Below the pieces are notes generated by a model. It made no database searches. It was not told where the DNA came from and worked only from the letters and a program-made list of their open reading frames with translations. DNA of 20,000 bases from the IMG/VR virus record IMGVR_UViG_3300025128_008688. One strand, 5' to 3'. The stretch is from an uncultured virus (IMG/VR IMGVR_UViG_3300025128_008688) (Duplodnaviria > Heunggongvirae > Uroviricota > Caudoviricetes). The position numbers and the translations under genes are program-made. Within the stretch, counting starts at the first letter, position 1. Each line of letters begins with the position of its first letter. This document shows positions 4,814-20,000 of the stretch, in pieces.

Positions 4814-6901
4814 TTAATTATTTTTGTTTATAGCTCTGAACACAGAAGAGTCTATGCTCTGCGCCCATTCAGGACCTATGTACATCCCCTGCTGAGTAGT
4901 GGATGGGGTGTCTGAACCAACCACCATCCCTATCGTATTATATGTCGGAGCCGGTAGAGCTCTGTGGATAGTTCTAGCTATCATATTAGCTATGACGATA
5001 GCACTATAACGGTCTTTTCTCATTCTGCCCTTCTTACCTGTACCTAGCTTTATTTCGGGCGTAGACCATCTTTCTCGACCTGCATTTGTGACTGTCATAA
5101 CAATCGTAGATAGCTCATCTTTAAGTTCTTCGACTTCCATCACAGCGTCCTCAAGTGTGTCATAGAGCCTTAGAGCTGTGCTCTCTCCAATCTTTTCCTT
5201 GATCTCTTTAAATGCGATCTTGTCCTTCTCTGTCATCAAGCTTAGAGTGAGAGTATCGAATCTGGGGAATAGTAAAACCTTATCCTCCAAGTCTTTTCTA
5301 AGCCCATGATTGGCCTGAGATGTCCACTTAGCACTAGCAAAGTTAACTAGATCTAAGATATGGTCACCTGCCATAGCGTCTGTATCTTTAGTTTTGCCAT
5401 CTTCTATTATTTCATATATAGGTCTTTCGCCCGGTTTAAGCTTATCTAAGTCTCTTAAAGATTCAGCTATTGTGAAACCTCCCCCCTGAGAGTCTATTCC
5501 AAGTCTTACGCAAGGGAATGATCTCATTAGGTCTCTGATCTTTCGAGCGCAGAAAGAATAGTAATCATGCGCATCAGTAAGTCCTATCTTCTTTCGTCCA
5601 GCAAAATCCTTCTTGTTAGTTGTCCATCCGTATACAACCCTCTGATGCTCTGGGTGAAGCTCTAATACTACGACCGCAAAATTATCTTGTTCGGAAGCTG
5701 GGTCAACGCCTATAACATACCTTTTATTTGGATCTCCCTTTGTCATGACATCAAAGGCATCAGGACACCAATCGGGCCAGTTATGACCTCCTACATTTGA
5801 ATCGCTAGCAACGCAAGCATGTATCAAACTCCTTTTAAAGAAGCCTTGGCTATCAGACGTAAAACAAGCGCCATATTCCATTTGGTAAATGCCGTTATGC
5901 ATCGTAGCCCTAGAGCGAGCTACCTGCTGGTCATCCATAAAGCCTTCAGGTATAATTTCATAAGGTACTCTTATAATCGAAAAGGATTTCCAATTCAACC
6001 TTTTCATGTAGTCAGGTATCTCATCATCGCCTTCTTCCGATTCTTCCTTTGACTTATTCCTTGCCTTACCAGAGGTTCCCCTGTTTATTATTGTAGATTT
6101 ATATTTTCTCCAATATTCAGCATATGGTTCAAAGTCATATCCAGCAGTTCCAGCTATGATAGACTGGTTAGCGGAGCGATCTTCATACTGAGATTCTTGA
6201 GCCTCATTCCAGACGCCCTGCTCTTTCATTTTCTTTCTTCTAGCTGCGTCCTTTACGTTCTGAGTAGGATTGCTAGAAACAGCAGCGAAACCAGCAACAA
6301 CAGTCTCATAAATGTGAGTAGGGATAGAGTTAAATTCGTCGGCAATAATTGTATGTGCTCGTAAACCTCTAATCTTATTTCCATCACCCAGAGGAACAGC
6401 CATGGCCCAACTATCATTGACCTTCATAGTGCAGCGGTCAACATCTCTTCTCGGCCCACTTGAATCTGTACAGATACTTTGTAAGATAGGGGCGTTTCTC
6501 CAAATGCTATCCATATATTCAAAGATAACCTTCGACTGCCTGAACGCAGCGCCTACGATGACTATCTTAGTTCCGGGCACAAGAGTTGTCTTAAGAAGAC
6601 AATATACCGAAAGCAGAAAAGACTTACCAAAACCACGAGATGCAATATACATAGGAAACGGTCGTCTCCAAAGCTCTCTAAGTATACATGTTTGTATTGG
6701 TAGTAGTTCTATGCCTAAGAGCGTCTTGACAGTCCAGTGAAAGTATTCTGGATCTCTCATTTTTTTAAGTACATATAAGTGGAAATCGTTCCTGTCTTTG
6801 TCGCTCAGGTTAGAGAGAGGCCTTTCTATTGAGCTGAGGTCATTCTCATCTAATCCTAACCAAGCATTCTCATATGCATTTATATCAATGTTGGAGTTCA
6901 T
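4814..6901 (-). CDS. terL: Terminase large subunit (695 aa)
   Basis: Walker A ASRGFGKS, Walker B IIADEF, GLRA motif, RNase H-like nuclease IGVDPAS and C-terminal KDRYSA. Confidence 0.92.
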   Translation of the reverse strand: MNSNIDINAYENAWLGLDENDLSSIERPLSNLSDKDRNDFHLYVLKKMRDPEYFHWTVKTLLGIELLPIQTCILRELWRRPFPMYIASRGFGKSFLLSVYCLLKTTLVPGTKIVIVGAAFRQSKVIFEYMDSIWRNAPILQSICTDSSGPRRDVDRCTMKVNDSWAMAVPLGDGNKIRGLRAHTIIADEFNSIPTHIYETVVAGFAAVSSNPTQNVKDAARRKKMKEQGVWNEAQESQYEDRSANQSIIAGTAGYDFEPYAEYWRKYKSTIINRGTSGKARNKSKEESEEGDDEIPDYMKRLNWKSFSIIRVPYEIIPEGFMDDQQVARSRATMHNGIYQMEYGACFTSDSQGFFKRSLIHACVASDSNVGGHNWPDWCPDAFDVMTKGDPNKRYVIGVDPASEQDNFAVVVLELHPEHQRVVYGWTTNKKDFAGRKKIGLTDAHDYYSFCARKIRDLMRSFPCVRLGIDSQGGGFTIAESLRDLDKLKPGERPIYEIIEDGKTKDTDAMAGDHILDLVNFASAKWTSQANHGLRKDLEDKVLLFPRFDTLTLSLMTEKDKIAFKEIKEKIGESTALRLYDTLEDAVMEVEELKDELSTIVMTVTNAGRERWSTPEIKLGTGKKGRMRKDRYSAIVIANMIARTIHRALPAPTYNTIGMVVGSDTPSTTQQGMYIGPEWAQSIDSSVFRAINKNN

Positions 6902-8761: not shown

Positions 8762-9568
8762 TTATTCATCCTCCTCATCTTTGACTGTGTCAGCATTAAG
8801 GAACGGCTGGTCTACTCCTCCATCCTCAAACGTATGGTAGTCAGACAGTGCCTTCAACGCTTTATTTGCGGCAAGCCTATTGATTTCCATACTCTCTTCC
8901 TCACGCTTACGAAACTGTTCATCATCAAGTTGTTTTAACCAAGCTGAAAAGTTTGTCTTTGCGTCAGCTGCATTTCGCTTACGCTGTTCTCTTGTCCCCT
9001 TCAAATCTTTTAGGAGACGCTCCTTCTTTGTCAGTAACTTCTCATGTTCATTAATATAAGCAGACTTACTAGCCATCGCAGCACCTAATTGCGTCTGGAA
9101 ACTAGCGATAGCCTGAGTGTCTTGCATATCTGTAGGTTTTCTTATTTCATCTTCGATAAGTTGGTTTAGTCGTGACACATTTTGGAGAACCTCTTGCCGA
9201 TCTTCCATTCCACGATTAATTAAAACCTCAGTCCTGATAACCTCTAGAATTTGCATCTCTTCTGTATGAGTAACATCCTCTGAGAACTGACGATAATAGT
9301 CAATCCACTGATGTTCAAAGAAAATCAACTCAGAATCATGAAATTGTTTTCTTAATTCATTATAATAATATCTTTTTCTAAGATTAATAAGAAGATGCTC
9401 TTCATCTGTTAAATCGCGCGCCTTTAAATTTTCCTTATCAATGAACTTATTAATAGGACCCGTAGTCCTGTTCAAAGTTTCCGCTATTTCTTCAATAGAT
9501 AAATCAAAACAGTTTTGCCTAATATAGTCCATCTCCCCGTTGGAAAGTTTACCACGTTTCCTTGTCAA
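8762..9568 (-). CDS. HTH + coiled-coil protein, candidate terminase small subunit (about 268 aa; TTG 9568 after GAGGAG preferred)
   Basis: N-terminal HTH-like LSIEEIAETLNRT and long helical/coiled-coil body; upstream of TerL. The TerS call is positional inference. Confidence 0.5.
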   Translation of the reverse strand: MTRKRGKLSNGEMDYIRQNCFDLSIEEIAETLNRTTGPINKFIDKENLKARDLTDEEHLLINLRKRYYYNELRKQFHDSELIFFEHQWIDYYRQFSEDVTHTEEMQILEVIRTEVLINRGMEDRQEVLQNVSRLNQLIEDEIRKPTDMQDTQAIASFQTQLGAAMASKSAYINEHEKLLTKKERLLKDLKGTREQRKRNAADAKTNFSAWLKQLDDEQFRKREEESMEINRLAANKALKALSDYHTFEDGGVDQPFLNADTVKDEEDE

Positions 9569-10145
9569 TATTATGCTCCTCAACTATTAAGTTTATTTCC
9601 TCTAGCAATCTAGTTCTTCTATTTTTAGAAAGCTTTAAATTGTTAATAAATCTTATCCAGTCCTCTCGTAAAGAAACCGGAAGCGCTATATCTATTATCT
9701 CAAATACTTCCTTCGTAAATAAAGTACTAAAGAAGCTTTCATTGTGTTCGTTTTGTTCAAATTCTAATGTAACTGATTTCATTAGGCTTTTCTTAGCGTT
9801 GTTGCGTTGACACCACCCTTTATATAGTGCACACTCATCTTGTCTATCAAAAGCTAGGCATTTCTGATTTCTAAAGAACTCACATGTATCACATGGTTTC
9901 TCTGGTCTGGAATAATTGTTCCTCTTAAAGTTATAGAGACGATTTCTTACATGTGTCCAGAGAAAATTCTCAAGTGGTCTCTTTTCATCATACTTTTCTA
10001 GACCTTCCCAAGCAAATAGACTTGCCTGCTGCTTAATATCATCTACTTCATGATAACCAAAACGAAATTTTCTACAAAGTCTTGTAGCAACTCTCTCTAT
10101 GGTCTCTATGACTTCTTCCTCAGTCATGTTAGAAGGAATGTGCAA
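9549..10145 (-). CDS. Phage sigma70-family sigma factor (region 2) with internal Cys cluster (198 aa)
   Basis: DDIKQQASLFAWEGLEKYD...FLWTHVRNRLYNFKR resembles sigma region 2; followed by CDTC-x7-C-x8-C. Confidence 0.7.
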   Translation of the reverse strand: MHIPSNMTEEEVIETIERVATRLCRKFRFGYHEVDDIKQQASLFAWEGLEKYDEKRPLENFLWTHVRNRLYNFKRNNYSRPEKPCDTCEFFRNQKCLAFDRQDECALYKGWCQRNNAKKSLMKSVTLEFEQNEHNESFFSTLFTKEVFEIIDIALPVSLREDWIRFINNLKLSKNRRTRLLEEINLIVEEHNIDKETW

Positions 10146-10146
10146 A

Positions 10147-10293
10147 TTAATCCTCTAGATTCTCTAAAAGCTCTTCAATATCTTTTTCCTCTGACGCATT
10201 AGCTAACTCTTCTTGAACTTCTTGGTCCAGCTCCTCAGACGCTGTTACCTTAAGCTCAGACGGCGTTAGCTTTACATTGTCTTTATCTGTCAT
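10147..10293 (-). CDS. Small acidic protein (48 aa), not in ORF track
   Basis: MTDKDNVKLTPSELKVTASEELDQEVQEELANASEEKDIEELLENLED; AAGGGA RBS; stop abuts the sigma gene start. Confidence 0.65.
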   Translation of the reverse strand: MTDKDNVKLTPSELKVTASEELDQEVQEELANASEEKDIEELLENLED

Positions 10294-10377: not shown

Positions 10378-10587
10378 ATGAACATAAAATGGACAGAAGA
10401 AGACAAGCAGTTCGTTATAGATAACTCAAAGTACATGAAAGATAAAGAAGTTGCTGAAAAGTTAAGCGAACAGGCTGGTAGAAAGGTCTCTCTTGACGCT
10501 GTTAGAAAGATGAGACAAAAACTAGGCATAAAAAAGAAACAAGGTCGAGGTATATGCGGAGTTATAGATAATGAACAAGGAAGATAA
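10378..10587 (+). CDS. Small HTH/Myb-like DNA-binding protein (69 aa)
   Basis: WTEEDKQFV...DKEVAEKL...SLDAVRKMRQKLGI pattern, basic tail; GGGG RBS. Confidence 0.7.
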   Translation: MNIKWTEEDKQFVIDNSKYMKDKEVAEKLSEQAGRKVSLDAVRKMRQKLGIKKKQGRGICGVIDNEQGR

Positions 10588-11686: not shown

Positions 11687-11702
11687 TGGCACGCGGATTG
11701 CA
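11687..11702 (+). promoter_or_regulatory. Consensus sigma54 (-24/-12) promoter TGGCACGCGGATTGCA
   Basis: Exact TGGCACG-N4-TTGCA, 29 nt upstream of the ATG at 11731; TTGGCACGC is duplicated at 11676 and 11686. Confidence 0.65.
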
Positions 11703-11730: not shown

Positions 11731-11937
11731 ATGATACTAATAGAAAACTTCATTGAAAACATTCCTCAAGATTGTGAGATTGCAATCGCTGGCCGTGGCG
11801 TCCGTTGTGACTGGAAATATAAAACAAAGGCAGAGCTGGTTGAGTTCGATGGCGATAGCGTTATGTTCTATGCTCCCTATGTAAAGAGATACATTCATAC
11901 AGATAAAAAAAGTATACTTTCTTACGAAATAATCTGA
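11731..11937 (+). CDS. Hypothetical protein (68 aa)
   Basis: ATG 11731 after GAAAGGT RBS; the track's upstream TTG start falls inside the promoter. Confidence 0.7.
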   Translation: MILIENFIENIPQDCEIAIAGRGVRCDWKYKTKAELVEFDGDSVMFYAPYVKRYIHTDKKSILSYEII

Positions 11938-11942
11938 GAGAA

Positions 11943-12141: not shown

Positions 12142-12198
12142 CTGCCATTTTGGCAGTTGGGCCGGCCCCAAATCGTTATTGAGACATAATCTCATTAA
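12142..12198 (+). repeat. Tripartite palindromic repeat copy 1
   Basis: CTGCCA-TTT-TGGCAG, GGGC-CG-GCCC, TTATTGAGA-CATAA-TCTCATTAA, then A-tract. Confidence 0.92.
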
Positions 12199-12229
12199 CA
12201 AAAAAGATTGATAAATCCCAAGAAAATAC

Positions 12230-12269
12230 TCAAGTATCTATTGACAAGTGCCGATAAATATAGTATAGT
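12230..12269 (+). promoter_or_regulatory. Composite sigma70 / sigma28-like promoter
   Basis: TTGACA(12241)-17-TATAGT; TCAAG(12230)-15-GCCGATAA(12250). Confidence 0.75.
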
Positions 12270-12302
12270 TAAGGTATAACCAGTTAATCGAAAGGATAGA
12301 AA

Positions 12303-12434
12303 ATGATTGATAAGATGATTGAACTAAGAAAAGAATTTGGCCTGCATGGCCTAGCGATGATCTCGGCGTTTGGCGTGTTCGTCGTAGGCTGGTACGTAAA
12401 AGAATTATTAATTTATTTACAGAAAATAATGTAA
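12303..12434 (+). CDS. Small single-TM membrane protein (43 aa)
   Basis: MIDKMIELRKEFGLHGLAMISAFGVFVVGWYVKELLIYLQKIM; GAAAGGA RBS. Confidence 0.65.
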   Translation: MIDKMIELRKEFGLHGLAMISAFGVFVVGWYVKELLIYLQKIM

Positions 12435-12440
12435 TTGCTA

Positions 12441-12469
12441 TTGACAAATCACGAAGTTTATGGTATAAT
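12441..12469 (+). promoter_or_regulatory. Consensus sigma70 promoter with extended -10
   Basis: TTGACA-17-TATAAT with TGn. Confidence 0.85.
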
Positions 12470-12499
12470 ATAATCATGTTAAACGAAAGGAAAAACGAC

Positions 12500-12670
12500 A
12501 TGACTAAAGCACAAGCAGAACTAAGCCTGATTAAGATTAATGCTGATATCGAAGCTAAGATTATCGAGCATAAGAATGAGCTAGGCGAGTACAATAAGAG
12601 TATCGTTGAGGGTGAGCTAGAGTACCTCTGGAAAGTAAAGAATGCTTTAACAAAAATAATTGCAAAATAG
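12500..12670 (+). CDS. Hypothetical helical protein (56 aa)
   Basis: ATG 12500 after AACGAAAGGAAA. Confidence 0.7.
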   Translation: MTKAQAELSLIKINADIEAKIIEHKNELGEYNKSIVEGELEYLWKVKNALTKIIAK

Positions 12671-12671
12671 T

Positions 12672-12712
12672 TAAAGATTACCCTTGACAAACGCCGATAT
12701 ATATAGTATAAT
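12672..12712 (+). promoter_or_regulatory. Composite sigma70 / sigma28-like promoter
   Basis: TAAAG(12672)-16-GCCGATAT(12693); TTGACA(12684)-17-TATAAT. Confidence 0.85.
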
Positions 12713-12740
12713 GATAGTATCAAACGAAAGGAAAATTGAT

Positions 12741-12986
12741 ATGAAAATTTCAGATTTACAACCAGCCGCTTACCCACAATCGCCTTCAGTGGAAAAGCCT
12801 AACAGTGATGCACATGCACTGTTCACTAACGACTTCAATAAGAATAGCTTCATCGAAGCTAATGGAGATGTCGAGATCGTTTGGAACGAACGATACAAAT
12901 ATTGGGAAGTTCCTGCCTTTGCTGAAGGACGTGCGGCTTACTGCAAAGCTAAGCAACGTGCTTGCGATACTTGGGGATGTGAATAA
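12741..12986 (+). CDS. Hypothetical protein (81 aa)
   Basis: ATG 12741 after AACGAAAGGAAA; the track's start at 12684 is the -35 box. Confidence 0.7.
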   Translation: MKISDLQPAAYPQSPSVEKPNSDAHALFTNDFNKNSFIEANGDVEIVWNERYKYWEVPAFAEGRAAYCKAKQRACDTWGCE

Positions 12987-12993
12987 CCACTAC

Positions 12994-13050
12994 CTGTTTG
13001 CCTTTAGTGGGGTTACACGTGAGTTCTGTTTGCCTTTTATAGGGTTACAC
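12994..13050 (+). repeat. Intergenic 25-bp direct repeat x2 (22/25 identical, period 32)
   Basis: CTGTTTGCCTTTAGTGGGGTTACAC (12994) and CTGTTTGCCTTTTATAGGGTTACAC (13026). Confidence 0.85.
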
Positions 13051-13065
13051 TGGAGATAAGAAAAT

Positions 13066-13233
13066 ATGGAATTTGTAGTATATAAGTCAGAGAAAGACAA
13101 TACAGGCCGATTGGTAGAGCTTGTATATAATAGACATTGTGAGCATTACGAGGTTGTTATAGATGGATTAACAGAGTTGAACTTTCAGAGATATGAACAG
13201 GCAAATTATGAATTTGAAATGGAGTGTGTATAA
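13066..13233 (+). CDS. Hypothetical protein (55 aa)
   Basis: MEFVVYKSEKDNTGRLVELVYNRHCEHYEVV...; GGAG RBS. Confidence 0.65.
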   Translation: MEFVVYKSEKDNTGRLVELVYNRHCEHYEVVIDGLTELNFQRYEQANYEFEMECV

Positions 13234-13322
13234 TGAAGGAAAAGTTTAATGAGTGGTTGTTCTGGGGAATGACTTCAGTTTGGTTAGGGTTTGGATGTTA
13301 TATTATATGGGTGACTAGATGA
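13233..13322 (+). CDS. Trp-rich membrane peptide (29 aa)
   Basis: MKEKFNEWLFWGMTSVWLGFGCYIIWVTR; TAATG coupling, GGAG RBS. Confidence 0.55.
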   Translation: MKEKFNEWLFWGMTSVWLGFGCYIIWVTR

Positions 13323-13435
13323 AGATGCGAAGAATTCACGCGGTACAATTAGCTAGAGAATTCAAGCGATTGGAAAAGAAGAAACCAGTACAGAAAAAGA
13401 AAGGGCTATTATCATGGCTAGGGAAACAGAAATAA
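13319..13435 (+). CDS. Small basic protein (38 aa)
   Basis: MKMRRIHAVQLAREFKRLEKKKPVQKKKGLLSWLGKQK; ATGA coupling. Confidence 0.5.
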   Translation: MKMRRIHAVQLAREFKRLEKKKPVQKKKGLLSWLGKQK

Positions 13436-13728
13436 AATCAGCGGTATTTTGCACACTGGCTCTATTGGCTGGGCTATGCTGTGCAGTATTGCTAGGGTGT
13501 AGTAGGTCAAAGGTAGAGCATGGTGCAGAGATCATAGAGCTTAAGCCGCTTGAGACACAGACGCAAGAGCTTACCATTCCTAATTACGATTATAATAAAC
13601 TCTGTAAAGGATGTGGATTTACAAAAGGGACTGACTCGTGGTGTGAGCTTCATGCTAATCCATTTAGTCACCCTGATAATCCACTCATGATGTCAGAAGA
13701 ACACTGCATTGCGATGCGAAAGAGATAG
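13414..13728 (+). CDS. Putative lipoprotein with C-terminal Cys/His cluster (104 aa)
   Basis: Hydrophobic signal ending in lipobox-like LLGC; CKGC...WCELH. Confidence 0.6.
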   Translation: MARETEIKSAVFCTLALLAGLCCAVLLGCSRSKVEHGAEIIELKPLETQTQELTIPNYDYNKLCKGCGFTKGTDSWCELHANPFSHPDNPLMMSEEHCIAMRKR

Positions 13729-13779
13729 GGCGTGCTGTTCCGCTTCTTAATTAAATAGAGCAGATTTCCTTTCGTTGTG

Positions 13780-13820
13780 GCCTGCCGGTTGAACTTTCAG
13801 CCGGTGGGCTTTTTGTTTTT
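13780..13820 (+). terminator. Rho-independent terminator
   Basis: GCCTGCCGGTTGAA-CT-TTCAGCCGGTGGGC followed by TTTTTGTTTTT. Confidence 0.8.
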
Positions 13821-13844
13821 CTCAATCTAGCTTTCTTGGTTTTG

Positions 13845-13903
13845 CTATAAAAAATAGGTTTGGGGCCCGCCCGGCGCGGCTTGTTGAGACTCGATCTCAA
13901 TAA
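13845..13903 (+). repeat. Tripartite repeat copy 2 (box A replaced by CTAT-A5-ATAG)
   Basis: GGGC-CC-GCCC, TTGTTGAGA-CTCGA-TCTCAATAA, A-tract. Confidence 0.85.
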
Positions 13904-13933
13904 GAAAAAACTTTGCTATTTCTCCAGAATATC

Positions 13934-13975
13934 TAAAGGTTAGGGCTATACATGCCGATAATAATAGTATAGAAT
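13934..13975 (+). promoter_or_regulatory. Sigma28-like promoter with weak overlapping sigma70
   Basis: TAAAG-15-GCCGATAA; TATACA-17-TAGAAT. Confidence 0.65.
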
Positions 13976-13989
13976 GAAAGGAGAACAAT

Positions 13990-14058
13990 ATGACATTCTT
14001 ATTTTTACTTATTGGTGCTTGCTTGGTTGGTTTTCTTGGGGCAGAAGTTTTACAATAA
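13990..14058 (+). CDS. Hydrophobic peptide (22 aa)
   Basis: MTFLFLLIGACLVGFLGAEVLQ; perfect GAAAGGAG RBS and its own promoter. Confidence 0.6.
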   Translation: MTFLFLLIGACLVGFLGAEVLQ

Positions 14059-14074
14059 AATTCTGATTTTACTC

Positions 14075-14103
14075 TTGACAACCGGCTTAATTTATGTTAT
14101 AAT
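14075..14103 (+). promoter_or_regulatory. Consensus sigma70 promoter with extended -10
   Basis: TTGACA-17-TATAAT with TGn. Confidence 0.85.
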
Positions 14104-14141
14104 GTAGTTATAACGAAAGACAATTTTTTAGGAGTCTCACT

Positions 14142-14432
14142 ATGAGCGACAAACTTTTCAACGCCGAACTTCGTGACTGTGCCCGTGTTGACGAAAAGGT
14201 TTCCATCTTCGAGCATCACCGCCGTGCTATGGAAGCCGCAGAGAAACGCACCTACACTGAGGAGGAGATTGCGATGTATGAGCGAACCATCGAACTTGAT
14301 GCGGAGGATCTCGCGCGTGCGCAGGGGGATTGGGAAGCCGCCGCCGATCAGGGTCATGACTGGAATGACTATGACGAAATCGACCTCTATGGTGCGGACT
14401 GGGATTCCTTCGCAGTACGTGATTGGGACTAA
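14142..14432 (+). CDS. Highly acidic protein (96 aa)
   Basis: AGGAG RBS; Asp/Glu-rich with recurring DW dipeptides in the C-terminal half. Confidence 0.75.
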   Translation: MSDKLFNAELRDCARVDEKVSIFEHHRRAMEAAEKRTYTEEEIAMYERTIELDAEDLARAQGDWEAAADQGHDWNDYDEIDLYGADWDSFAVRDWD

Positions 14433-14494
14433 CGCCCGTATGGGAACTGGCGCCGAAAGGCTAGGGTTAAGAGCTACTGCATCCCAAAGGCAAC

Positions 14495-14551
14495 CTGCCA
14501 AAATGGCAGCTGGGGCGGGCCCAAATCGTTAATGAGACTGAATCTCAATAA
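14495..14551 (+). repeat. Tripartite palindromic repeat copy 3
   Basis: CTGCCA-AAA-TGGCAG, GGGC-GG-GCCC, TTAATGAGA-CTGAA-TCTCAATAA. Confidence 0.92.
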
Positions 14552-14591
14552 GCTAAAAAAGATTATATTATTCTGAAAAAATGTTGAGCGA

Positions 14592-14633
14592 GTGACCTAA
14601 CGTGTCACGACCATGTGCGATAATATATATATA
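14592..14633 (+). promoter_or_regulatory. Class B promoter element copy 2
   Basis: GTGACCTAACGTGTCAC-N7-TGCGATAA-TATATATATA. Confidence 0.6.
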
Positions 14634-14646
14634 AGGAGTTAAGGAA

Positions 14647-14793
14647 ATGATGAACAACAGACAAATAGCAATAGCAAAACACAACGCGAGCAAAAAACGC
14701 TTTGCGGACATATTCACCGGATGCCTAGCACACGGCACGCTGAAGCAAACACAGAAGAAAAAAAAGACCTTCAAATTGCCAAAAAATAAATAA
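14647..14793 (+). CDS. Small basic protein (48 aa)
   Basis: MMNNRQIAIAKHNASKKRFADIFTGCLAHGTLKQTQKKKKTFKLPKNK; AAGGAG/AAGGA RBS. Confidence 0.6.
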   Translation: MMNNRQIAIAKHNASKKRFADIFTGCLAHGTLKQTQKKKKTFKLPKNK

Positions 14794-14806
14794 TCAACCG
14801 GCACGA

Positions 14807-14848
14807 GTGACCAACCGTGTCACACGCTTAGACGATAATATATATATA
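14807..14848 (+). promoter_or_regulatory. Class B promoter element copy 3
   Basis: GTGACCAACCGTGTCAC-N7-GACGATAA-TATATATATA. Confidence 0.6.
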
Positions 14849-14874
14849 CAAGAGATTAACAAAAGGAAAAACAG

Positions 14875-15096
14875 ATGAAACAATTCAACGTTCTAGCCGT
14901 CGTCCCAGTCACTCGAAAAGAAAGAACCTTTCGGAATGTTGACGCTAAAGACCTGTTCCACAACGAACACGGCGAAACATACTTCCGATACAATCGGTTG
15001 GTTAACTGGGAAGTTATCACAGCTACAGAAATCCCACAGGAAAAGTTGGATGCTGAGCTGGCATACTTTACAAAATTTGGAACTAAAAATGAATAG
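14875..15096 (+). CDS. Hypothetical protein (73 aa)
   Basis: AAAGGA RBS; downstream of a class B element. Confidence 0.7.
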   Translation: MKQFNVLAVVPVTRKERTFRNVDAKDLFHNEHGETYFRYNRLVNWEVITATEIPQEKLDAELAYFTKFGTKNE

Positions 15097-15105
15097 AAAT
15101 AATGC

Positions 15106-15134
15106 TTGCAATATAAAATTGCGTATGTTAAAAT
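15106..15134 (+). promoter_or_regulatory. Sigma70 promoter with extended -10
   Basis: TTGCAA-17-TAAAAT with TGn. Confidence 0.7.
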
Positions 15135-15160
15135 ATTAGTATAGAACGAAAGGAAATAAA

Positions 15161-15397
15161 ATGGCTTATACAGCATATGAAATCAGACGAACGAAAGAAA
15201 CTCCAACCGGCAAGCGTCACCTAGTGCGATGCAACCGACTAGGCAAGTGGGCAATCACTAGCTGGGTAGGTTCAACCGGCTCAGCTATGGGTAGCGTTGA
15301 ATGTCAGGGTGAATATGACTATGTCATAAAGAAGTGGAAACAACTTGTCGGCGCAGAAAGTTTCGAAGCATTACGTAAATTAGCAGTAGGAGAGTGA
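15161..15397 (+). CDS. Hypothetical protein (78 aa)
   Basis: AACGAAAGGAAA leader; ORF track. Confidence 0.72.
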   Translation: MAYTAYEIRRTKETPTGKRHLVRCNRLGKWAITSWVGSTGSAMGSVECQGEYDYVIKKWKQLVGAESFEALRKLAVGE

Positions 15398-15654
15398 ATA
15401 TGATAGTTGCAGATGAAAGAGCCAAAGACGGCTTAGAGCTTTTCGACATAGACGGAACGGAATCGTTCGAGATGAAAAACGAAACGCTTCGGATGTGTGC
15501 GGATGAAGATGGTTCGATATGGTACTCTGTGCGAGGCCTGACCATAAAAGACGCAGACGGAAATACGTTGTTTACTTTATCGTGGTCGGAGAATGGCGTT
15601 TGTGGTTCGCTATACGATGACGAGTTGACCGTTGAGATAGAGGAGGAGTTCTAA
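15394..15654 (+). CDS. Acidic hypothetical protein (about 84-86 aa)
   Basis: AGGAG RBS, coupled to the previous gene (GTG 15394 or ATG 15400). Confidence 0.7.
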   Translation: MNMIVADERAKDGLELFDIDGTESFEMKNETLRMCADEDGSIWYSVRGLTIKDADGNTLFTLSWSENGVCGSLYDDELTVEIEEEF

Positions 15655-15818
15655 TGAGAATTTTACAAACCGATTGCACACCGGAGCAAGTACAAAAAGA
15701 TTTGCCGGAGCTAGAAAGATTAAATCGTGAAGCGATGGAAACAAAAATCATGTGGGAGTTCTTCGGTGGAACAATCACACTAGAAAACGGACACAAGTAT
15801 CAGGTAACAGGAGAATAG
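15654..15818 (+). CDS. Hypothetical protein (54 aa), not in ORF track
   Basis: MRILQTDCTPEQVQKDLPELERLNREAMETKIMWEFFGGTITLENGHKYQVTGE; GAGGAG RBS, TAATG coupling. Confidence 0.65.
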   Translation: MRILQTDCTPEQVQKDLPELERLNREAMETKIMWEFFGGTITLENGHKYQVTGE

Positions 15819-15820
15819 AC

Positions 15821-15976
15821 ATGCAAGAATATTTTGAATACCTAACTGATTTACGAGACGGTGGCACCATTAATATGATGGGAGCGCCGAGAGAACTAGA
15901 ATATGAGTTTGGCCTAGATAGGGCAGAAGCTCGTGAAGTATTTAGCAAGTGGTGCGAATCACTGAAAGGAAATTGA
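15821..15976 (+). CDS. Conserved-type small phage protein (51 aa)
   Basis: YLTDLRDGGTINMMGA...EFGL...AREVFSKW resembles a recurrent small phage family (recognised by eye); AGGAG RBS. Confidence 0.7.
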   Translation: MQEYFEYLTDLRDGGTINMMGAPRELEYEFGLDRAEAREVFSKWCESLKGN

Positions 15977-15978
15977 GA

Positions 15979-16209
15979 ATGAGTGATTTAAGAATAATTA
16001 AAGAGCGCCGTTTCTATGACGAGCACGGAACAAAAAAGTTTGCGCTGCTTGAGGAAGGGCAGACAGTAAAGATTGACAGCCATCCGCGTTCGGGTAGCGG
16101 TCCGTTACTCTGCAGGGTGGTTAACCCGTCAGAAGCGTCTAAGGATTTTGGCGTGCGTGATGGTATGCTGGTTGAAGTTGATTGGGAAGATTTGGGGTTT
16201 GAGGAATGA
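15979..16209 (+). CDS. Hypothetical beta-rich (SH3-like) protein (76 aa)
   Basis: ATG 15979 after GAAAGGA; the stop abuts repeat copy 4. Confidence 0.68.
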   Translation: MSDLRIIKERRFYDEHGTKKFALLEEGQTVKIDSHPRSGSGPLLCRVVNPSEASKDFGVRDGMLVEVDWEDLGFEE

Positions 16210-16266
16210 CTGTCAAAATGGCAGTTGGGCCGGCCCCAGCGGCTTGTTGAGACTGAATCTCAATAA
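16210..16266 (+). repeat. Tripartite palindromic repeat copy 4
   Basis: CTGTCA-AAA-TGGCAG, GGGC-CG-GCCC, TTGTTGAGA-CTGAA-TCTCAATAA, A-tract. Confidence 0.92.
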
Positions 16267-16318
16267 GAAAAAACTTCTATCTTTTTCCCTGAAAATGACT
16301 GGATTGGGTGGATTTCTT

Positions 16319-16347
16319 TTGCAATATATGCCGATATATATTATACT
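16319..16347 (+). promoter_or_regulatory. Sigma70 promoter with GCCGATAT in spacer
   Basis: TTGCAA-17-TATACT; GCCGATAT at 16330; no TAAAG upstream. Confidence 0.7.
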
Positions 16348-16376
16348 GGAGGGGTACTCAAGAGAAAGGTAACAAT

Positions 16377-16541
16377 ATGAGCTACGAAGAAATTTATGAA
16401 TCAGGCAAGACGGCAGGATACAACGGACTACCGGCAGGTAGTAATCCATACGACCGAGATTTTGAACCGGAAGAAAATAACTATTGGTTCATGGGGTGGA
16501 TAGCAGTAAGACAGGGAAAAGAAACCTTAGACTTTTCCTGA
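16377..16541 (+). CDS. Ribosome modulation factor (Rmf/CrpP)-fold-like protein (54 aa)
   Basis: YESGKTAGYNG...NPY...YWFMGW matches the Rmf pattern G..AG..G...PY...W..GW; GAAAGGT RBS. Confidence 0.6.
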   Translation: MSYEEIYESGKTAGYNGLPAGSNPYDRDFEPEENNYWFMGWIAVRQGKETLDFS

Positions 16542-16559
16542 AAATAATTCAGACTGCTA

Positions 16560-16588
16560 TTGACAAACGGCTAACTTTATGGTATAAT
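16560..16588 (+). promoter_or_regulatory. Consensus sigma70 promoter with extended -10
   Basis: TTGACA-17-TATAAT with TGn. Confidence 0.85.
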
Positions 16589-16616
16589 AGGGTTATCTTA
16601 AACGAAAGGAAATAAG

Positions 16617-16928
16617 ATGAGCTACTTCAAATTCAGACAGAACAATTCGTTCGGTCACTTCGTCGGGACTCCGTTGGTATTTGTTCAGGCAGATAATGCC
16701 ATAGATGCCAACCGTGTTGCACAGGATCACGGTGTCTACTTCAACGGCGTAGCCGATGGCGTTGACTGTGATTGCTGTGGTGATCGTTGGTATCCTGTTC
16801 AGGATGACGACGCACAGGATCAGCCTAAATCATACGGTTATGGTGGTGGTGTTACTGTCTACAGTGACGGTGATAATTACATGGACTACAGTGGAAAAAA
16901 CTGGCCTGTAAAAGTAATCCAAAAATAA
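16617..16928 (+). CDS. Conserved-type phage protein with CDCCGDRW motif (103 aa)
   Basis: FRQNNSFG...GVYFNGVADGVDCDCCGDRWY is a pattern recurrent in phage hypothetical proteins; AACGAAAGGAAA leader. Confidence 0.78.
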   Translation: MSYFKFRQNNSFGHFVGTPLVFVQADNAIDANRVAQDHGVYFNGVADGVDCDCCGDRWYPVQDDDAQDQPKSYGYGGGVTVYSDGDNYMDYSGKNWPVKVIQK

Positions 16929-16941
16929 TAGTTTTTTGGGC

Positions 16942-16970
16942 TTGCAAATTGATTCCCGCTATGGTAAAAT
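16942..16970 (+). promoter_or_regulatory. Sigma70 promoter with extended -10
   Basis: TTGCAA-17-TAAAAT with TGn. Confidence 0.7.
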
Positions 16971-17003
16971 CGTAGTATACAAAACAACAACAAAGGAAAA
17001 GTT

Positions 17004-17366
17004 ATGAACGAAACAACTAAAAAAATGCTCGCTGAACTAGATGCCGCTATCCTTGAGTGCCTATGGGTTCCTAATGAGTCCCTACCCGAGGAATTCCAAG
17101 ACAATCGCGAAGGCGGCAAGACGTTGAAACGACTTCACAAACAGCTTCAGCCGGAGCAGGAAGTTGACCCAAGACAGGCACACGTTGTCATATCCAATGG
17201 TCAGATTAAATACGGCAATCAGGAAAGAATCGACGTACTAAATAAATATCAGGCAGACGTTGAGGCTGGCCGTGAAATTGAATACGATGTTAACGAGTAC
17301 AAGCTACATAAAAACCTTATGGCGTTTTGCTCGGCTATGAATGTTGACTTGGAGCCTGAAGAATGA
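17004..17366 (+). CDS. Hypothetical protein (120 aa)
   Basis: AAAGGA RBS; ORF track. Confidence 0.75.
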   Translation: MNETTKKMLAELDAAILECLWVPNESLPEEFQDNREGGKTLKRLHKQLQPEQEVDPRQAHVVISNGQIKYGNQERIDVLNKYQADVEAGREIEYDVNEYKLHKNLMAFCSAMNVDLEPEE

Positions 17367-17430
17367 TTGTAAAGATAATTATAATTTGCACACTAAGTTT
17401 AATGTTTTACCCCAGCGAAGGAGTTTAAAG

Positions 17431-17712
17431 ATGTCTATAGAGATTAAAGAAGAAACATTGTTGGCAGTAGTAGAGAAGGCAATGCAATCAGACCCCATGG
17501 AATACTGCGGTAGATTCCTAGAGGAACACAAGAGCGTAGCCGAACCACTTTCGACGCTAGCTGTCAACCTTGCCCAGTTGGTAACCGATGGTGACGACAT
17601 GGAAAATCTAATAATGGCATCGACCGCAATCAGTTCCGCTATGTTCATGACTTATGAAATGGCAAACGCAGAAGTCGAAGCCAAAGAGCTAGAGGAGTTA
17701 TTCGATGCGTAA
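17431..17712 (+). CDS. Acidic helical hypothetical protein (93 aa)
   Basis: ATG 17431 after AAGGAG. Confidence 0.72.
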   Translation: MSIEIKEETLLAVVEKAMQSDPMEYCGRFLEEHKSVAEPLSTLAVNLAQLVTDGDDMENLIMASTAISSAMFMTYEMANAEVEAKELEELFDA

Positions 17713-17866
17713 AAAAACAAAGAAATTAATTATTAAGGCCGAAGACATTAAAGTGTCAACAGGTCATCGCCAGCACTTCACTGGTACGGGAGCGTGGGAC
17801 AATCGCCCGAAACGTCAACGCACTCGATCCGCACAATCTCGGGCAACTATGAAGGAGTACCAATAA
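17705..17866 (+). CDS. Small basic protein (53 aa), not in ORF track
   Basis: MRKKTKKLIIKAEDIKVSTGHRQHFTGTGAWDNRPKRQRTRSAQSRATMKEYQ; GAGGAG RBS. Confidence 0.65.
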   Translation: MRKKTKKLIIKAEDIKVSTGHRQHFTGTGAWDNRPKRQRTRSAQSRATMKEYQ

Positions 17867-18046
17867 ATGGTTACTGCAATTCTAAAGGCCGGTACGCCGG
17901 TTGAGTTCACCCTCACGGGTATCGCTGGCACGGTCAAAGCGATTCAGAATGACCGAGTTCTCATTGAGAACGCTAAAGGGGAAACCCTAAACCCAAGCCT
18001 AGCCGATGTTCTGGTGATGGTCAAGTCTGGATCGTTAAAAGTATAG
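17867..18046 (+). CDS. Small KOW/SH3-like protein (59 aa), not in ORF track
   Basis: MVTAILKAGTPVEFTLTGIAGTVKAIQNDRVLIENAKGE...; AAGGAG RBS. Confidence 0.65.
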   Translation: MVTAILKAGTPVEFTLTGIAGTVKAIQNDRVLIENAKGETLNPSLADVLVMVKSGSLKV

Positions 18047-18060
18047 ACTTCGTTGTGCGG

Positions 18061-18110
18061 TGTCCCTGCCGGTTGGTTTTTGAACTTGCGACTAGCCGGT
18101 AGGGATAACA
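18061..18110 (+). terminator. Long hairpin related in sequence to the 13780 terminator
   Basis: TGTCCCTGCCGGTTGGT...ACTAGCCGGTAGGGATA; lacks a U-tract. Confidence 0.5.
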
Positions 18111-18116
18111 ACGAGA

Positions 18117-18174
18117 CTGCCAAAATGGCAGCTGGGGCCCGCCCAAAGTCCTTATTGAGACTCTATCTCATTAG
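18117..18174 (+). repeat. Tripartite palindromic repeat copy 5
   Basis: CTGCCA-AAA-TGGCAG, GGGC-CC-GCCC, TTATTGAGA-CTCTA-TCTCATTAG, A-tract. Confidence 0.92.
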
Positions 18175-18194
18175 GAAAAAATCTAAAGATTGAT

Positions 18195-18235
18195 TAAAGA
18201 TTCTATTTGCAATATGCCGATGTATATAATATAAT
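18195..18235 (+). promoter_or_regulatory. Composite sigma70 / sigma28-like promoter
   Basis: TAAAG(18195)-16-GCCGATGT; TTGCAA(18207)-17-TATAAT. Confidence 0.75.
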
Positions 18236-18240
18236 GAAAT

Positions 18241-18380
18241 TGTAAGACAGGCGGCACGCAGTTAGCCAAGCAGGGAAACCGTCAGTCACGCAGTAAGTCG
18301 TGTCCTCTGTCTTGCCCAAGATAGCTTGCTTGACTGTTTTACATACTGTTTAGCACGCGAGTTTACCACGACAGTTTTTC
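18241..18380 (+). ncRNA. Candidate structured small RNA
   Basis: Starts at the expected +1 of a strong promoter and lacks the GAAAGGA RBS/ORF arrangement; several complementary segments; ends at ACTGT...ACAGT + TTTTT. Confidence 0.45.
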
Positions 18381-18402
18381 ACTAGAGTTTTCCGAAAAAT
18401 CC

Positions 18403-18443
18403 TAAAGTTCCCCCTTGACAATAGCCGATATATATGGTATACT
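18403..18443 (+). promoter_or_regulatory. Composite sigma70 / sigma28-like promoter
   Basis: TAAAG(18403)-16-GCCGATAT; TTGACA(18415)-17-TATACT with TGn. Confidence 0.85.
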
Positions 18444-18467
18444 GAAAGAGAAAGAAAGGGAGACAAA

Positions 18468-18869
18468 ATGATAGATAGAAACAAAAGAGTATATGTTTAC
18501 TTCAATCTGCATCGCAAGTGTTTCAGTGTTAGACAAGGTACGCGAGTTGTAGAGCATACAAATCAGGTTTGCTTAAAGGATGTTAGGTACATGGTTCAGC
18601 CGGCAGGTAGAGCTAAGGTACTAAAAGAGAAGAAGAAGAATGTCCACGCTGGATTGTCGGGCTACTATGTTGACCGTGTTCCAGTTCCGGCAGTTAGTTT
18701 TGATGTTACATACAACCCATACAAATACGATTCATTCGTAGATACTCAGGATCATGAAGCTCAGGAATGGTCAGAGTATGCCCACCTTACATGTGGAGAT
18801 GGGTGGAGAAACATAGAAGCGATATTTACTCGGGAATATTTTCAGGAAAAAGTTAAAGTTCCTGCTTGA
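18468..18869 (+). CDS. Conserved-type phage hypothetical protein (133 aa)
   Basis: VYVYFNLHRKCFSVR...AGRAKVLKEKKKNVHA...YNPYK is a pattern recurrent in phage genomes; GGGAG RBS. Confidence 0.8.
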   Translation: MIDRNKRVYVYFNLHRKCFSVRQGTRVVEHTNQVCLKDVRYMVQPAGRAKVLKEKKKNVHAGLSGYYVDRVPVPAVSFDVTYNPYKYDSFVDTQDHEAQEWSEYAHLTCGDGWRNIEAIFTREYFQEKVKVPA

Positions 18870-18894
18870 CAAATGCCGATATATATTATATAAT
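18854..18894 (+). promoter_or_regulatory. Composite sigma70 / sigma28-like promoter overlapping the stop of the previous gene
   Basis: TAAAG(18854)-16-GCCGATAT; TTGACA(18866)-17-TATAAT. Confidence 0.85.
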
Positions 18895-18932
18895 GAAAGA
18901 GTTCAACAGTTAGTTTTTTTAGGGAGAATCGA

Positions 18933-19196
18933 ATGAAGATTCAAAAGACAGAGGCATTAGCCTTAAGTTTCGGAAACGAAGTATACACTAATACTTATGT
19001 TTCAAATTATTCTGGTGAGACTGAAATCAAGTTTCACGATTATCAGAGTGATGGCGCAGAGTTCAAGGTAAATATCAATGTGCCAATCGAAACAGCTCGT
19101 TCTATCCTTAATGAGTTGCAACAGGATCTTGAAAACTACGATGCTTTTCAAGCCAAGAAAGCTCAGGAAGCCATAGCCGAAGCTACAGAAGAGTAA
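18933..19196 (+). CDS. Hypothetical protein (87 aa)
   Basis: GGGAG RBS; ORF track. Confidence 0.75.
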   Translation: MKIQKTEALALSFGNEVYTNTYVSNYSGETEIKFHDYQSDGAEFKVNINVPIETARSILNELQQDLENYDAFQAKKAQEAIAEATEE

Positions 19197-19276
19197 CCCT
19201 TTCGTGAGTCGTGGCGGACTATAAAACGCCATTTTACAAAGTTTACTATTTTTTTCTAAGACTAGGAGAAGTTATT

Positions 19277-19462
19277 ATGAAAGCTGTTAAAGGAAACCTT
19301 TTTGCCGTGGAAATCAAAGGCAAAGTAAATACCACCAACCGTAGCCGTGACCAATGGGCACAGATTACTGATGCTCGAAGTGGCAGAGTTCTGCACACTG
19401 GTCAACCTCGCTACATCAAGCGAGTGGCTAAGGCTAAGTACAACACACTGTTGGACATCTAG
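19277..19462 (+). CDS. Basic hypothetical protein (61 aa)
   Basis: ATG 19277 after AGGAG. Confidence 0.7.
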   Translation: MKAVKGNLFAVEIKGKVNTTNRSRDQWAQITDARSGRVLHTGQPRYIKRVAKAKYNTLLDI

Positions 19463-19474
19463 TCTTAGGATGGG

Positions 19475-19518
19475 ATTGCCGCCCTGTAAGTCATGAGAAT
19501 GCGTGGGCGGTAATTTTT
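19475..19518 (+). terminator. Probable Rho-independent terminator
   Basis: ATTGCCGCCC...GGGCGGTAAT followed by TTTT; large loop. Confidence 0.6.
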
Positions 19519-19606
19519 AATACAAAGATAAAACAGAGTAGCCCAATTAAAGCCTCCTTGATGAAGGGTGAAAAGGGTGACGGCTTAACCCCTACTCTAT
19601 TTTTGT

Positions 19607-19664
19607 CTGCCAAAATGACAGTTGGGGCCGGCCCGGCCCGCTTATTGAGACCCAGTCTCATTAA
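19607..19664 (+). repeat. Tripartite palindromic repeat copy 6
   Basis: CTGCCA-AAA-TGACAG, GGGC-CG-GCCC, TTATTGAGA-CCCAG-TCTCATTAA, A-tract. Confidence 0.92.
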
Positions 19665-19705
19665 GAAAAAAAGATTGCCTATTCCGAAAAAACAAATGGT
19701 TTTGA

Positions 19706-19746
19706 TATAGTTTTAGTTTGCAAATGGACGATATATATAGTATACT
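19706..19746 (+). promoter_or_regulatory. Composite sigma70 / degenerate sigma28-like promoter
   Basis: TATAG-16-GACGATAT; TTGCAA(19718)-17-TATACT. Confidence 0.7.
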
Positions 19747-19781: not shown

Positions 19782-20000
19782 ATGCTAAAATTCAGCAAAG
19801 CTAATGCCAAAACGCAAGCACTCAAAAACGATTCAGAGTTAGCAGACTACTTGACAGACAAGCGTAAAATTTATTCGTTAGATTTACTCAGTGGCTACTC
19901 GTGCCCATATGCTGAAAAATGTTTATCTAAGGCAGTAGTTCAGCCTAATGGTAAACGTAAAATTAAAGATGGTAAGAAAACAGAGTTTCGTTGCTTCTCA
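19782..20000 (+). CDS. GP88-like (radical-SAM-related) phage protein, N-terminal part
   Basis: MLKFSKANAK...IYSLDLLSGYSCPYAEKCLSK...FRCFS matches the GP88-type pattern (N-K, F/L-L-xG-xCP-A-xxC...C); GGGAG RBS. Confidence 0.65.
   Translation, partial: MLKFSKANAKTQALKNDSELADYLTDKRKIYSLDLLSGYSCPYAEKCLSKAVVQPNGKRKIKDGKKTEFRCFS

What the first reader, a model, noticed from the sequence alone, without database searches (positions are those of the whole stretch)
12142..19664. Six dispersed ~57-bp three-palindrome elements divide the early region into promoter-bearing gene cassettes
Seen: copies at 12142, 13845, 14495, 16210, 18117 and 19607, 0.65-1.9 kb apart and all in the same orientation. Each has box A CTGYCA-W3-TGRCAG (absent in copy 2), box B GGGC-SS-GCCC (all six), box C TTRWTGAGAC-N3-RTCTCAWTAR (all six) and an A-tract. 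The A-end to C-start distance is 19-20 bp, about two helical turns. Each copy follows a stop codon or hairpin (copies 1 and 4 begin within 1-2 nt of a stop) and is followed within about 20-55 bp by a promoter. Variation is symmetric but not compensatory: CTGTCA on the left arm in copy 4 versus TGACAG on the right arm in copy 6, AAA/TTT loop inversion, and independent ATT/AAT swaps in box C arms. Inference: this pattern fits dsDNA sites for dimeric proteins better than RNA hairpins. The element could be a three-protein operator platform controlling each early module, a decoy array titrating host regulators, or a recombination junction for gene shuffling. The last would be analogous to the PeSL promoter cassettes of T4-like phages, but with a different structure. 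I do not recognise this element as described.
Basis: partly seen in the sequence, partly recalled or inferred. Interest (0 to 1): 0.88.

Follow-up and report, generated by a model that had tools for sequence, protein, structure and literature searches.

The report
Host iron/heat-shock sites at phage promoters
A marine phage of planctomycete bacteria has placed copies of its host's own iron-sensor site and heat-shock enhancer site in front of several of its early promoters, so it probably uses, or soaks up, two host stress regulators at the start of infection.

Summary
The element is real: six copies, none elsewhere in the 125-kb contig (a planctomycete phage, about 52% complete). It is not three novel palindromes. 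Box C is the host iron-regulator (Fur-type) box: a motif found de novo upstream of Pirellulaceae feoA genes picks the six C boxes as its top six hits in the phage. Box A is the host chaperone-gene site: 20 of 30 host matches lie before groES, dnaK or hsp20, 19 of those 20 with a sigma-54 promoter downstream, so it is probably a sigma-54 enhancer. Box B is a variable GC-rich spacer. In relatives the slots are exchangeable (A+C, C+C, A only), the C-to-promoter distance clusters about one helical turn apart, and these promoters tend to have weakened -35 boxes. Best reading: host regulators act on adjacent phage early promoters from upstream, probably as activators (about 0.5); a decoy role is the main rival (0.25). 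Cassette shuffling is limited; RNA stems are rejected. No binding or expression data exist. My paper searches found no description of the composite; Fur-type boxes also occur in other phages, including the T5 injection-stop region.

The parts
12142..12205 (+). Copy 1: box A 12142-12156 (host sigma-54 enhancer-type site), GC spacer B 12159-12168, box C 12176-12198 (host Fur-type box), A-tract 12200-12205
12241..12269 (+). sigma-70-type promoter after copy 1 (consensus -35); C centre 63 bp before the GHCGATA anchor
13863..13910 (+). Copy 2: no box A; B 13863-13872, C 13881-13903, A-tract; follows a terminator-like hairpin with T-run (about 13785-13820); downstream promoter lacks a -35 match; C-to-anchor distance 62 bp
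14495..14560 (+). Copy 3: A 14495-14509, B 14513-14522, C 14529-14551, A-tract; downstream promoter is of the box-D class
14592..14608 (+). Box D (GTGAC-N7-GTCAC) in place of a -35 box; also at 11942 and 14807; the same motif is enriched in host genomes
16210..16273 (+). Copy 4: A 16210-16224, B 16227-16236, C 16244-16266, A-tract; promoter at 16319 (non-consensus -35); distance 75 bp
18117..18181 (+). Copy 5: A 18117-18131, B 18135-18144, C 18152-18174, A-tract; promoter at 18207 (non-consensus -35); distance 53 bp (counted by hand)
19607..19672 (+). Copy 6: A 19607-19621, B 19625-19634, C 19642-19664, A-tract; promoter at 19718 (non-consensus -35); distance 74 bp
11687..11702 (+). sigma-54 -24/-12 promoter-like site before ORF 11731-11937, 455 bp upstream of the first box A; a similar site lies near the start of the early region in L341, L363 and L014
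11731..20000 (+). Early region of short co-directional ORFs: of 25 scanned, only DUF7296 (16617) and a Phage_L5_gp82-like protein (18468) have Pfam hits; continues beyond the contig end
1..10293 (-). Divergent late block: portal (2594-4768), terminase large subunit (4814-6901), ERCC4 nuclease, HNH, GDP-mannose dehydratase, sigma factor (9549-10145)

Best explanation
The element is a two-slot landing pad for HOST transcription regulators, built in front of a subset of the phage's early promoters. Shown by sequence comparison: box C is the Pirellulaceae iron-regulon box; box A is the site found upstream of Pirellulaceae chaperone genes with sigma-54 promoters; B is a GC-rich spacer; the slots can hold A+C, C+C or A alone. 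Inferred: C binds the host Fur-family protein and A binds a host sigma-54 enhancer-binding protein. Inferred mechanism: with its centre at about -79, -89 or -100 from the start site, metal-loaded Fur (helped by the protein at A or by a second Fur dimer) sits on one helical face relative to RNA polymerase and raises the output of promoters with weakened -35 boxes. That would tie part of the early programme to the host's iron and protein-folding state. The sign is not shown: Fur spreading over the AT-rich spacer could repress instead.
For: Host: the best 80 of 317 hits of a phage DUF1501 protein are nearly all planctomycete genomes, mostly Pirellulaceae. Box C core exact in 44 of 151 family genomes against 7 for the reversed control. 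9 of 30 loci have feoA/feoB downstream, 1 a PepSY-TM gene, 6 DUF1559/prepilin genes. Unbiased test: the de novo palindrome from 27 feoA upstream regions is present in 26, and its top six hits in the phage are the six C boxes (20.0-25.8 bits, next 14.5). Fur in 5 of 5 hosts, DtxR-family in 2 of 5, Fur in 0 of 5 related phage records/bins and not in this contig. Box A exact in 92 of 151 genomes against 20 control; 20 of 30 loci precede groES (13), dnaK (5) or hsp20 (2); 19 of these 20 have a sigma-54 site 93-288 bp downstream and none has CIRCE; HrcA in 0 of 4 hosts; box A in 6 of 7 operon-leading groES regions and 0 of 26 feoA regions. Geometry: of 63 sites within 80 bp of a promoter anchor, 28 lie at 52-54 bp, 25 at 62-65, 10 at 70-79, none at 55-61 or 66-69; p about 0.0006 on 15 sequence clusters. 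Consensus -35 in 11 of 55 element-bearing against 71 of 105 other promoters. Published Fur-activated promoters carry the box about 90-100 bp upstream (PMC3788343, passages).
Against: No binding, transcript or mutant data; the runs laid were contigs only. The promoters are related by duplication, so phasing and -35 counts are not independent: the -35 contrast is p=0.016 at one clustering level and p=0.11 at a looser one, p=0.063 in a first rank test. Seven sites at 70-71 bp are 3-4 bp off phase. A sigma-54 activator normally needs a sigma-54 promoter, and none lies at host-like distance downstream of the A boxes in the window. H-NS and Lsr2 were found in 0 of 5 hosts, so the ftnA-type anti-silencing route lacks a known target. 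Exchangeable slots fit a decoy as well. The de novo groES run was swamped by GroEL tail repeats and did not recover box A. The true host is not identified, only its likely family.
Confidence: 0.5

Rival explanations
1. Decoy array: the boxes soak up host Fur (derepressing ferrous-iron uptake for the phage's iron-dependent enzymes) and the heat-shock activator (dampening the host stress response), mainly once the genome has replicated; the position next to promoters is incidental.
For: Phage boxes are near-consensus. Slots are exchangeable, and one slot is filled by a reversed sigma-54-promoter-like site in several relatives. The phage carries SufB-like and Fe-S biosynthesis genes. Other phage families carry tandem box-C arrays at roughly 30-46-bp periods, several next to terminase genes rather than at single promoters.
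Against: A decoy does not need helical phasing to a promoter, a fixed orientation with the A-tract on the promoter side (31 of 46 proximal against 3 of 9 distal C boxes), or weaker -35 boxes. About eight sites per entering genome is few against an abundant regulator (Fur abundance recalled, not from a call).
Confidence: 0.25
2. Structural role at genome entry: host proteins bound along the first-entering DNA pace, anchor or shield it, as proposed for host-protein sites in the T5 injection-stop region.
For: T5's annotated injection-stop region (9140-10149) holds Fur-type boxes at 9656, 9691 and 9697. Box-C arrays in unrelated phages often sit at the late/early junction. All copies lie in the early region beside the packaging genes.
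Against: Genome ends of this phage are unknown. More distant relatives lack A and C in the early DNA examined while keeping the promoter type (L020, L023, L024) or lack all of it (L033). The spacing follows promoters, not a regular ladder.
Confidence: 0.1
3. The element exists mainly as a recombination junction that shuffles gene cassettes (PeSL-like).
For: One swap of neighbouring cassettes between lineages, and some cassettes joined differently; assemblies break up in this region and related contigs show mosaic joints.
Against: Order is unchanged in L333, L341, L369, L363, L014, L111/L116 and L366, and identical in a second assembly of the same phage; gains and losses also fall inside cassettes. 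None of the 15 joints shown (of 38) reads as an in-register element-to-element excision. The central bases of C differ among copies, and both boxes match host regulon motifs.
Confidence: 0.07
4. Operators for phage-encoded regulators (HTH at 10378 or 8762, or genes in the missing half).
For: 10378-10587 has a weak PHROG transcription-regulator hit (E 5.8e-5); about half of the genome is missing.
Against: Both motifs match host regulons with coherent target genes; no Fur gene in this contig or in five related records, one of them complete.
Confidence: 0.05
5. RNA or single-strand hairpins (terminator or processing signals).
For: All three boxes are inverted repeats, and the elements lie between genes.
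Against: Pairing is broken in 37 of 68 sites at +/-8 and 33 of 68 at +/-2, with no compensation (the core positions were fixed by the search pattern); no U-run follows on either strand; no Rfam family reaches its gathering score.
Confidence: 0.02

Closest known systems
Fur boxes, including Fur-activated promoters (N. meningitidis norB about -100, V. cholerae ompT -90, E. coli ftnA; PMC3788343, passages read)
   Same: 19-bp palindrome with the 7-1-7 layout (layout recalled); same motif precedes host feoAB; upstream position of -79 to -100 in the phage
   Different: Here on a phage, repeated before many early promoters, paired with a second host site; in hosts the box appears (by eye) to sit just after the -10 box, a repressing position; binder not shown experimentally
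sigma-54 upstream activating sequences; predicted sigma-54 control of chaperone genes in Planctomycetia (PMC12316311, passages read)
   Same: Box A lies 93-288 bp upstream of sigma-54 sites at host groES, dnaK and hsp20, often with a second degenerate site about 40 bp away across a GC-rich spacer
   Different: In the phage it precedes sigma-70-type promoters; the only sigma-54 site on that strand is 455 bp upstream of the first copy; the activator is unidentified
PeSL promoter-stem-loop cassettes of T4-like phages (PMC4122927 abstract; PMC2839356 search listing)
   Same: Repeated intergenic units that bound variable early-gene cassettes
   Different: PeSLs are terminator-promoter composites; this unit is made of host regulator sites, is not an RNA stem-loop, and variation is not confined to it
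Phage T5 injection-stop region (bioRxiv 10.1101/866236, passages read)
   Same: Non-coding early DNA with host-protein sites; Fur-type boxes present by my scan
   Different: That paper proposes DnaA boxes and does not contain the word Fur; T5 boxes form one cluster, not promoter-phased units; no sigma-54 enhancer tested there
Single Fur box before the sitABCD iron-transport operon of lambdoid phages (PMC6969025, passage read)
   Same: Host Fur box on phage DNA
   Different: One ordinary operator on an iron gene, against a repeated composite before small genes of unknown function

Membership tests
Fur box (box C) | AT-rich 19-bp inverted repeat of 7-1-7 type | tested here: met
   De novo host consensus and all six phage copies; the canonical layout itself is recalled
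Fur box (box C) | Same motif upstream of host iron-uptake genes | tested here: met
   26 of 27 feoA upstream regions; 9 of 30 pattern hits before feoA/feoB
Fur box (box C) | Host encodes a Fur-family protein, with DtxR not a better candidate | tested here: met
   Fur 5 of 5; DtxR-family 2 of 5 (draft genomes). Four of the five have two Fur paralogues, so which one binds is open
Fur box (box C) | Metal-dependent binding by Fur | not testable with these tools
   Needs EMSA or ChIP
sigma-54 enhancer (box A, in hosts) | Palindrome about 100-300 bp upstream of a -24/-12 promoter | tested here: met
   19 of 20 chaperone loci
sigma-54 enhancer (box A, in hosts) | Host encodes sigma-54 activators | tested here: met
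   7-21 family hits in each of 4 hosts; cognate activator not identified
sigma-54 enhancer (box A, in the phage) | A sigma-54 promoter at enhancer distance downstream | tested here: not met
   Window has one + strand site at 11687, upstream of all copies, and one - strand site inside an ORF at 19809
CIRCE/HrcA operator (box A) | CIRCE inverted repeat and an hrcA gene | tested here: not met
   No CIRCE at 20 loci; HrcA 0 of 4 hosts; PMC4989314 passage states HrcA is absent from Planctomycetes
PeSL cassette | Composite of terminator stem-loop and early promoter | tested here: not met
   Element is not a conserved stem; separate hairpins precede only some copies
PeSL cassette | Gene gain, loss and exchange with breakpoints at the element | tested here: inconclusive
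   One cassette swap; much variation inside cassettes; breakpoints not mapped at base level
T5-type injection-stop signal | Lies in first-transferred terminal DNA and halts entry | not testable with these tools
   Contig is linear and 52% complete, no end repeats
Structured RNA family | Compensatory pairing or Rfam match | tested here: not met

The most novel reading that the evidence does not exclude
These phages build early promoters as a panel of borrowed host signals (Fur box, heat-shock sigma-54 enhancer, box D, sigma-54 sites) so that each early cassette is switched by the infected cell's iron and folding state, with a sigma-54 activator repurposed at sigma-70-type promoters. Fur-box pads in unrelated phages, including the T5 injection-stop region, would then reflect a general, overlooked use of host Fur at the start of infection, linking iron status to the onset of lysis in the sea.
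Probability: 0.3. Interest if true: 0.9.

Novelty: new variant of a known kind. Interest (0 to 1): 0.76.

Why it matters
It turns an unexplained repeat into a testable statement: a phage of abundant marine planctomycetes carries the host's iron and heat-shock regulator sites at fixed geometry before early promoters. If functional, host iron status would shape the start of infection, or the phage would derepress iron uptake with DNA alone; either matters where iron limits growth. The work also yields a predicted Pirellulaceae Fur box, a chaperone enhancer and a third motif, and the Fur-type boxes in T5's injection-stop region give a laboratory route to the wider question.

Tried and rejected
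Rfam: two chance hits below gathering score. Strict B+C scan of viral contigs found only one near-identical phage contig, because B is not conserved. Phage-encoded Fur: not found. HrcA/CIRCE for box A: rejected. H-NS and Lsr2 as anti-silencing targets: not found in 5 draft genomes. De novo groES motif search failed because most top groES hits follow groEL; the sigma-54 pattern had a wrong spacing and its output was not used. A sigma-28-like reading of the TAAAG...GHCGATA part of the promoters (consensus recalled): present in 110 of 160 phage promoters but not enriched over control in 61 host genomes, so left open. Read laying: contigs only, so no start sites, ends or expression; the one RNA run held mostly diverged relatives. 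A bin with phage-like contigs (G005) showed no excess of box C. The Rhodopirellula heat-shock paper (PMC2754498, passages) gives no motif. Look-ups of earlier notes by place and sequence were empty. Structure prediction, complex prediction and the protein homologue searches were not used. No supplements were read; motif tables in supplements of PMC12316311 or PMC2754498 could bear on whether boxes A, C or D are already listed.
Full report
OBSERVATION. The six copies are present as described. Boxes A and C each have a chance expectation of 0.01 per shuffled window, and a profile finds no further copy in the 125,401-bp contig. The contig is a linear virus record, about 52% complete, and ends 2 bp after the window. 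A near-identical assembly (L345/L349) continues and adds a seventh copy with two A boxes, an eighth with A and no C, and a further degenerate C.

SETTING. The left half of the window is the late block on the minus strand (portal, terminase, sigma factor); the right half is a run of short co-directional ORFs with many strong promoters. The genome carries at least four DUF1501 genes plus SufB-like and Fe-S biosynthesis genes. The best 80 of 317 genome hits of one DUF1501 protein are nearly all planctomycete, mostly Pirellulaceae; two carry other labels. The host family is inferred from this; the host species is unknown.

BOX C IS THE HOST IRON BOX. Its 17-bp core is exact in 44 of 151 Pirellulaceae genomes against 7 for the reversed control. 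Of the 30 loci returned, 9 have feoA or feoB next to the site, 1 a PepSY-TM gene and 6 DUF1559/prepilin genes; the rest are unrelated or unannotated. Because that search used the phage pattern, I ran it the other way. From 30 FeoA loci I dropped 3 that looked like FeoA domains of longer regulator-sized proteins and searched the other 27 upstream regions de novo. One palindrome dominated (TGAGA-N5-TCTCA exact in 14, posterior above 0.85 in 26), and its matrix ranks the six C boxes first in the whole phage contig. By eye the host box sits just after the -10 element, where a repressor binds. Fur is present in 5 of 5 hosts and DtxR-family proteins in 2 of 5. That the binder is Fur is an inference.

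BOX A IS THE HOST CHAPERONE-GENE SITE. It is exact in 92 of 151 genomes against 20 control. Twenty of 30 loci precede groES, dnaK or hsp20; 19 of these have a sigma-54 -24/-12 site 93-288 bp downstream and none has CIRCE. HrcA was found in 0 of 4 hosts, in line with a passage of PMC4989314. A survey predicts sigma-54 promoters at chaperone genes in Planctomycetia (PMC12316311, passages). A de novo run on 29 groES regions failed; among the 7 groES loci of the operon-leading type, picked by their protein start, 6 carry box A, against 0 of 26 feoA regions. Box A is therefore most likely an enhancer for a sigma-54 activator.

BOX B AND THE SLOTS. In 68 related sites the spacer averages 71% GC, but the strict palindrome is in 17. 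At equivalent positions the first slot is A in this phage and a second C in L333, L341, L014 and L111/L116; other relatives keep A and replace C by a GC hairpin or a reversed sigma-54-like site. The A+C composite recurs in 9 viral and 53 metagenome stretches, many redundant. More distant relatives lack A and C in the early DNA examined, so the pad is clade-restricted.

GEOMETRY. Among 73 non-identical C sites with a promoter anchor within 120 bp, 63 lie within 80 bp: 28 at 52-54, 25 at 62-65, 7 at 70-71, 2 at 74-75 and 1 at 79; the other 10 are at 90 (3) or are distal partners of tandem sites (7). One of the 73 (L094) is probably from another phage family. On 15 clusters the 10-11-bp periodicity has p about 0.0006 against a uniform null. 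These distances put C at about -79, -89 and -100, like published Fur-activated promoters (PMC3788343, passages). Element-bearing promoters have a consensus -35 in 11 of 55 cases against 71 of 105; after clustering this is 5 of 20 against 30 of 50 (p=0.016) or 1 of 11 against 9 of 22 (p=0.11). A third class replaces -35 by box D, also enriched in hosts and followed there by a similar CGAT word in several loci.

SHUFFLING AND RNA. Over 23 contig stretches, cassette order is kept in the closest relatives, one swap separates a second lineage, and genes come and go inside cassettes. Laid contigs show mosaic relatives, but no in-register element-to-element excision among the 15 of 38 joints shown. 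Arm pairing in C is broken without compensation.

WIDER PATTERN. The box-C pattern hits 118 viral stretches. In many other phages it forms arrays with periods of roughly 30-46 bp, several beside terminase genes. T5's annotated injection-stop region holds three Fur-type matches; a preprint on that region proposes DnaA boxes and does not contain the word Fur. Earlier notes of this scan report similar arrays and a planctomycete chaperone enhancer; I read them after my own host tests and count them as leads only.

MECHANISM. Most likely the pad lets host Fur, with a partner at the first slot, act on the adjacent promoter from upstream, probably raising weakened promoters (0.5). Against this: no direct data, non-independent promoters, no sigma-54 promoter at the usual distance, and no H-NS or Lsr2 in 5 hosts. 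Decoy 0.25, entry/structure 0.1, recombination 0.07, phage-protein operator 0.05, RNA 0.02.

NOVELTY. Ten full-text searches listed no paper describing this composite, a Pirellulaceae Fur box, or repeated Fur boxes before phage early promoters; the library lacks most subscription papers and no supplements were read. Host-regulator sites on phages are known singly (PMC6969025, passage), and repeated promoter cassettes are known as PeSLs (PMC4122927, abstract). I rate this a new variant of a known kind; interest 0.76.

Noticed in passing
window 11942, 14592, 14807: Box D replaces the -35 box in a class of early promoters; the same oriented motif is enriched in Pirellulaceae genomes (12 exact copies in G009). 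Regulator or alternative sigma unknown.
   Followed up: partly
window 12230, 12672, 13934, 18195, 18403, 18854: Early promoters carry TAAAG-N14-16-GHCGAT overlapping the sigma-70 boxes, resembling a sigma-28 promoter (recalled); only these six in the contig; not enriched in hosts.
   Followed up: partly
window 11687-11702; L341 5265 and 5501, L363 5066, L014 11335 (early-strand coordinates): A sigma-54 promoter-like site recurs near the start of the early region in relatives.
   Followed up: partly
L047-L126 (for example L048, L053, L057, L066, L083, L090, L094, L124): Tandem Fur-type box arrays in other phage families, several next to terminase genes; L094 has seven boxes at a 46-bp period, the nearest 53 bp before a promoter of the same type.
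   Followed up: partly
L384 (phage T5) 231, 6098, 9656-9715: Fur-type boxes near the left end, in repeat region 2 (weak) and in the injection-stop region.
   Followed up: partly
G000 C1 40418-47599, 25718-27448, 9443-9780: Four DUF1501 genes in a cluster, Fe-S assembly genes, a tmRNA and four tRNAs.
   Followed up: partly
L175 and L248 (G005); L174: Genome bins labelled SAR202 and Proteobacteria hold the closest relatives of the phage DUF1501 protein (79-86%); G005 contigs look like mis-binned phages of this family.
   Followed up: no
L032, about 3986-4085 upstream-strand coordinates: Four palindromic repeats at a 28-bp period upstream of the sigma gene in a distant relative.
   Followed up: no
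L020, L023, L024: A different dyad (AAGTC-N13) repeats two or three times in the early region of relatives that lack boxes A and C.
   Followed up: no
window 12994-13055: Two tandem 30-bp repeats 32 bp apart between ORFs 12741-12986 and 13066-13233.
   Followed up: no
window 18240-18400: A 200-bp ORF-free stretch between the copy 5 promoter and the next promoter; possibly a small RNA; no Rfam match.
   Followed up: no
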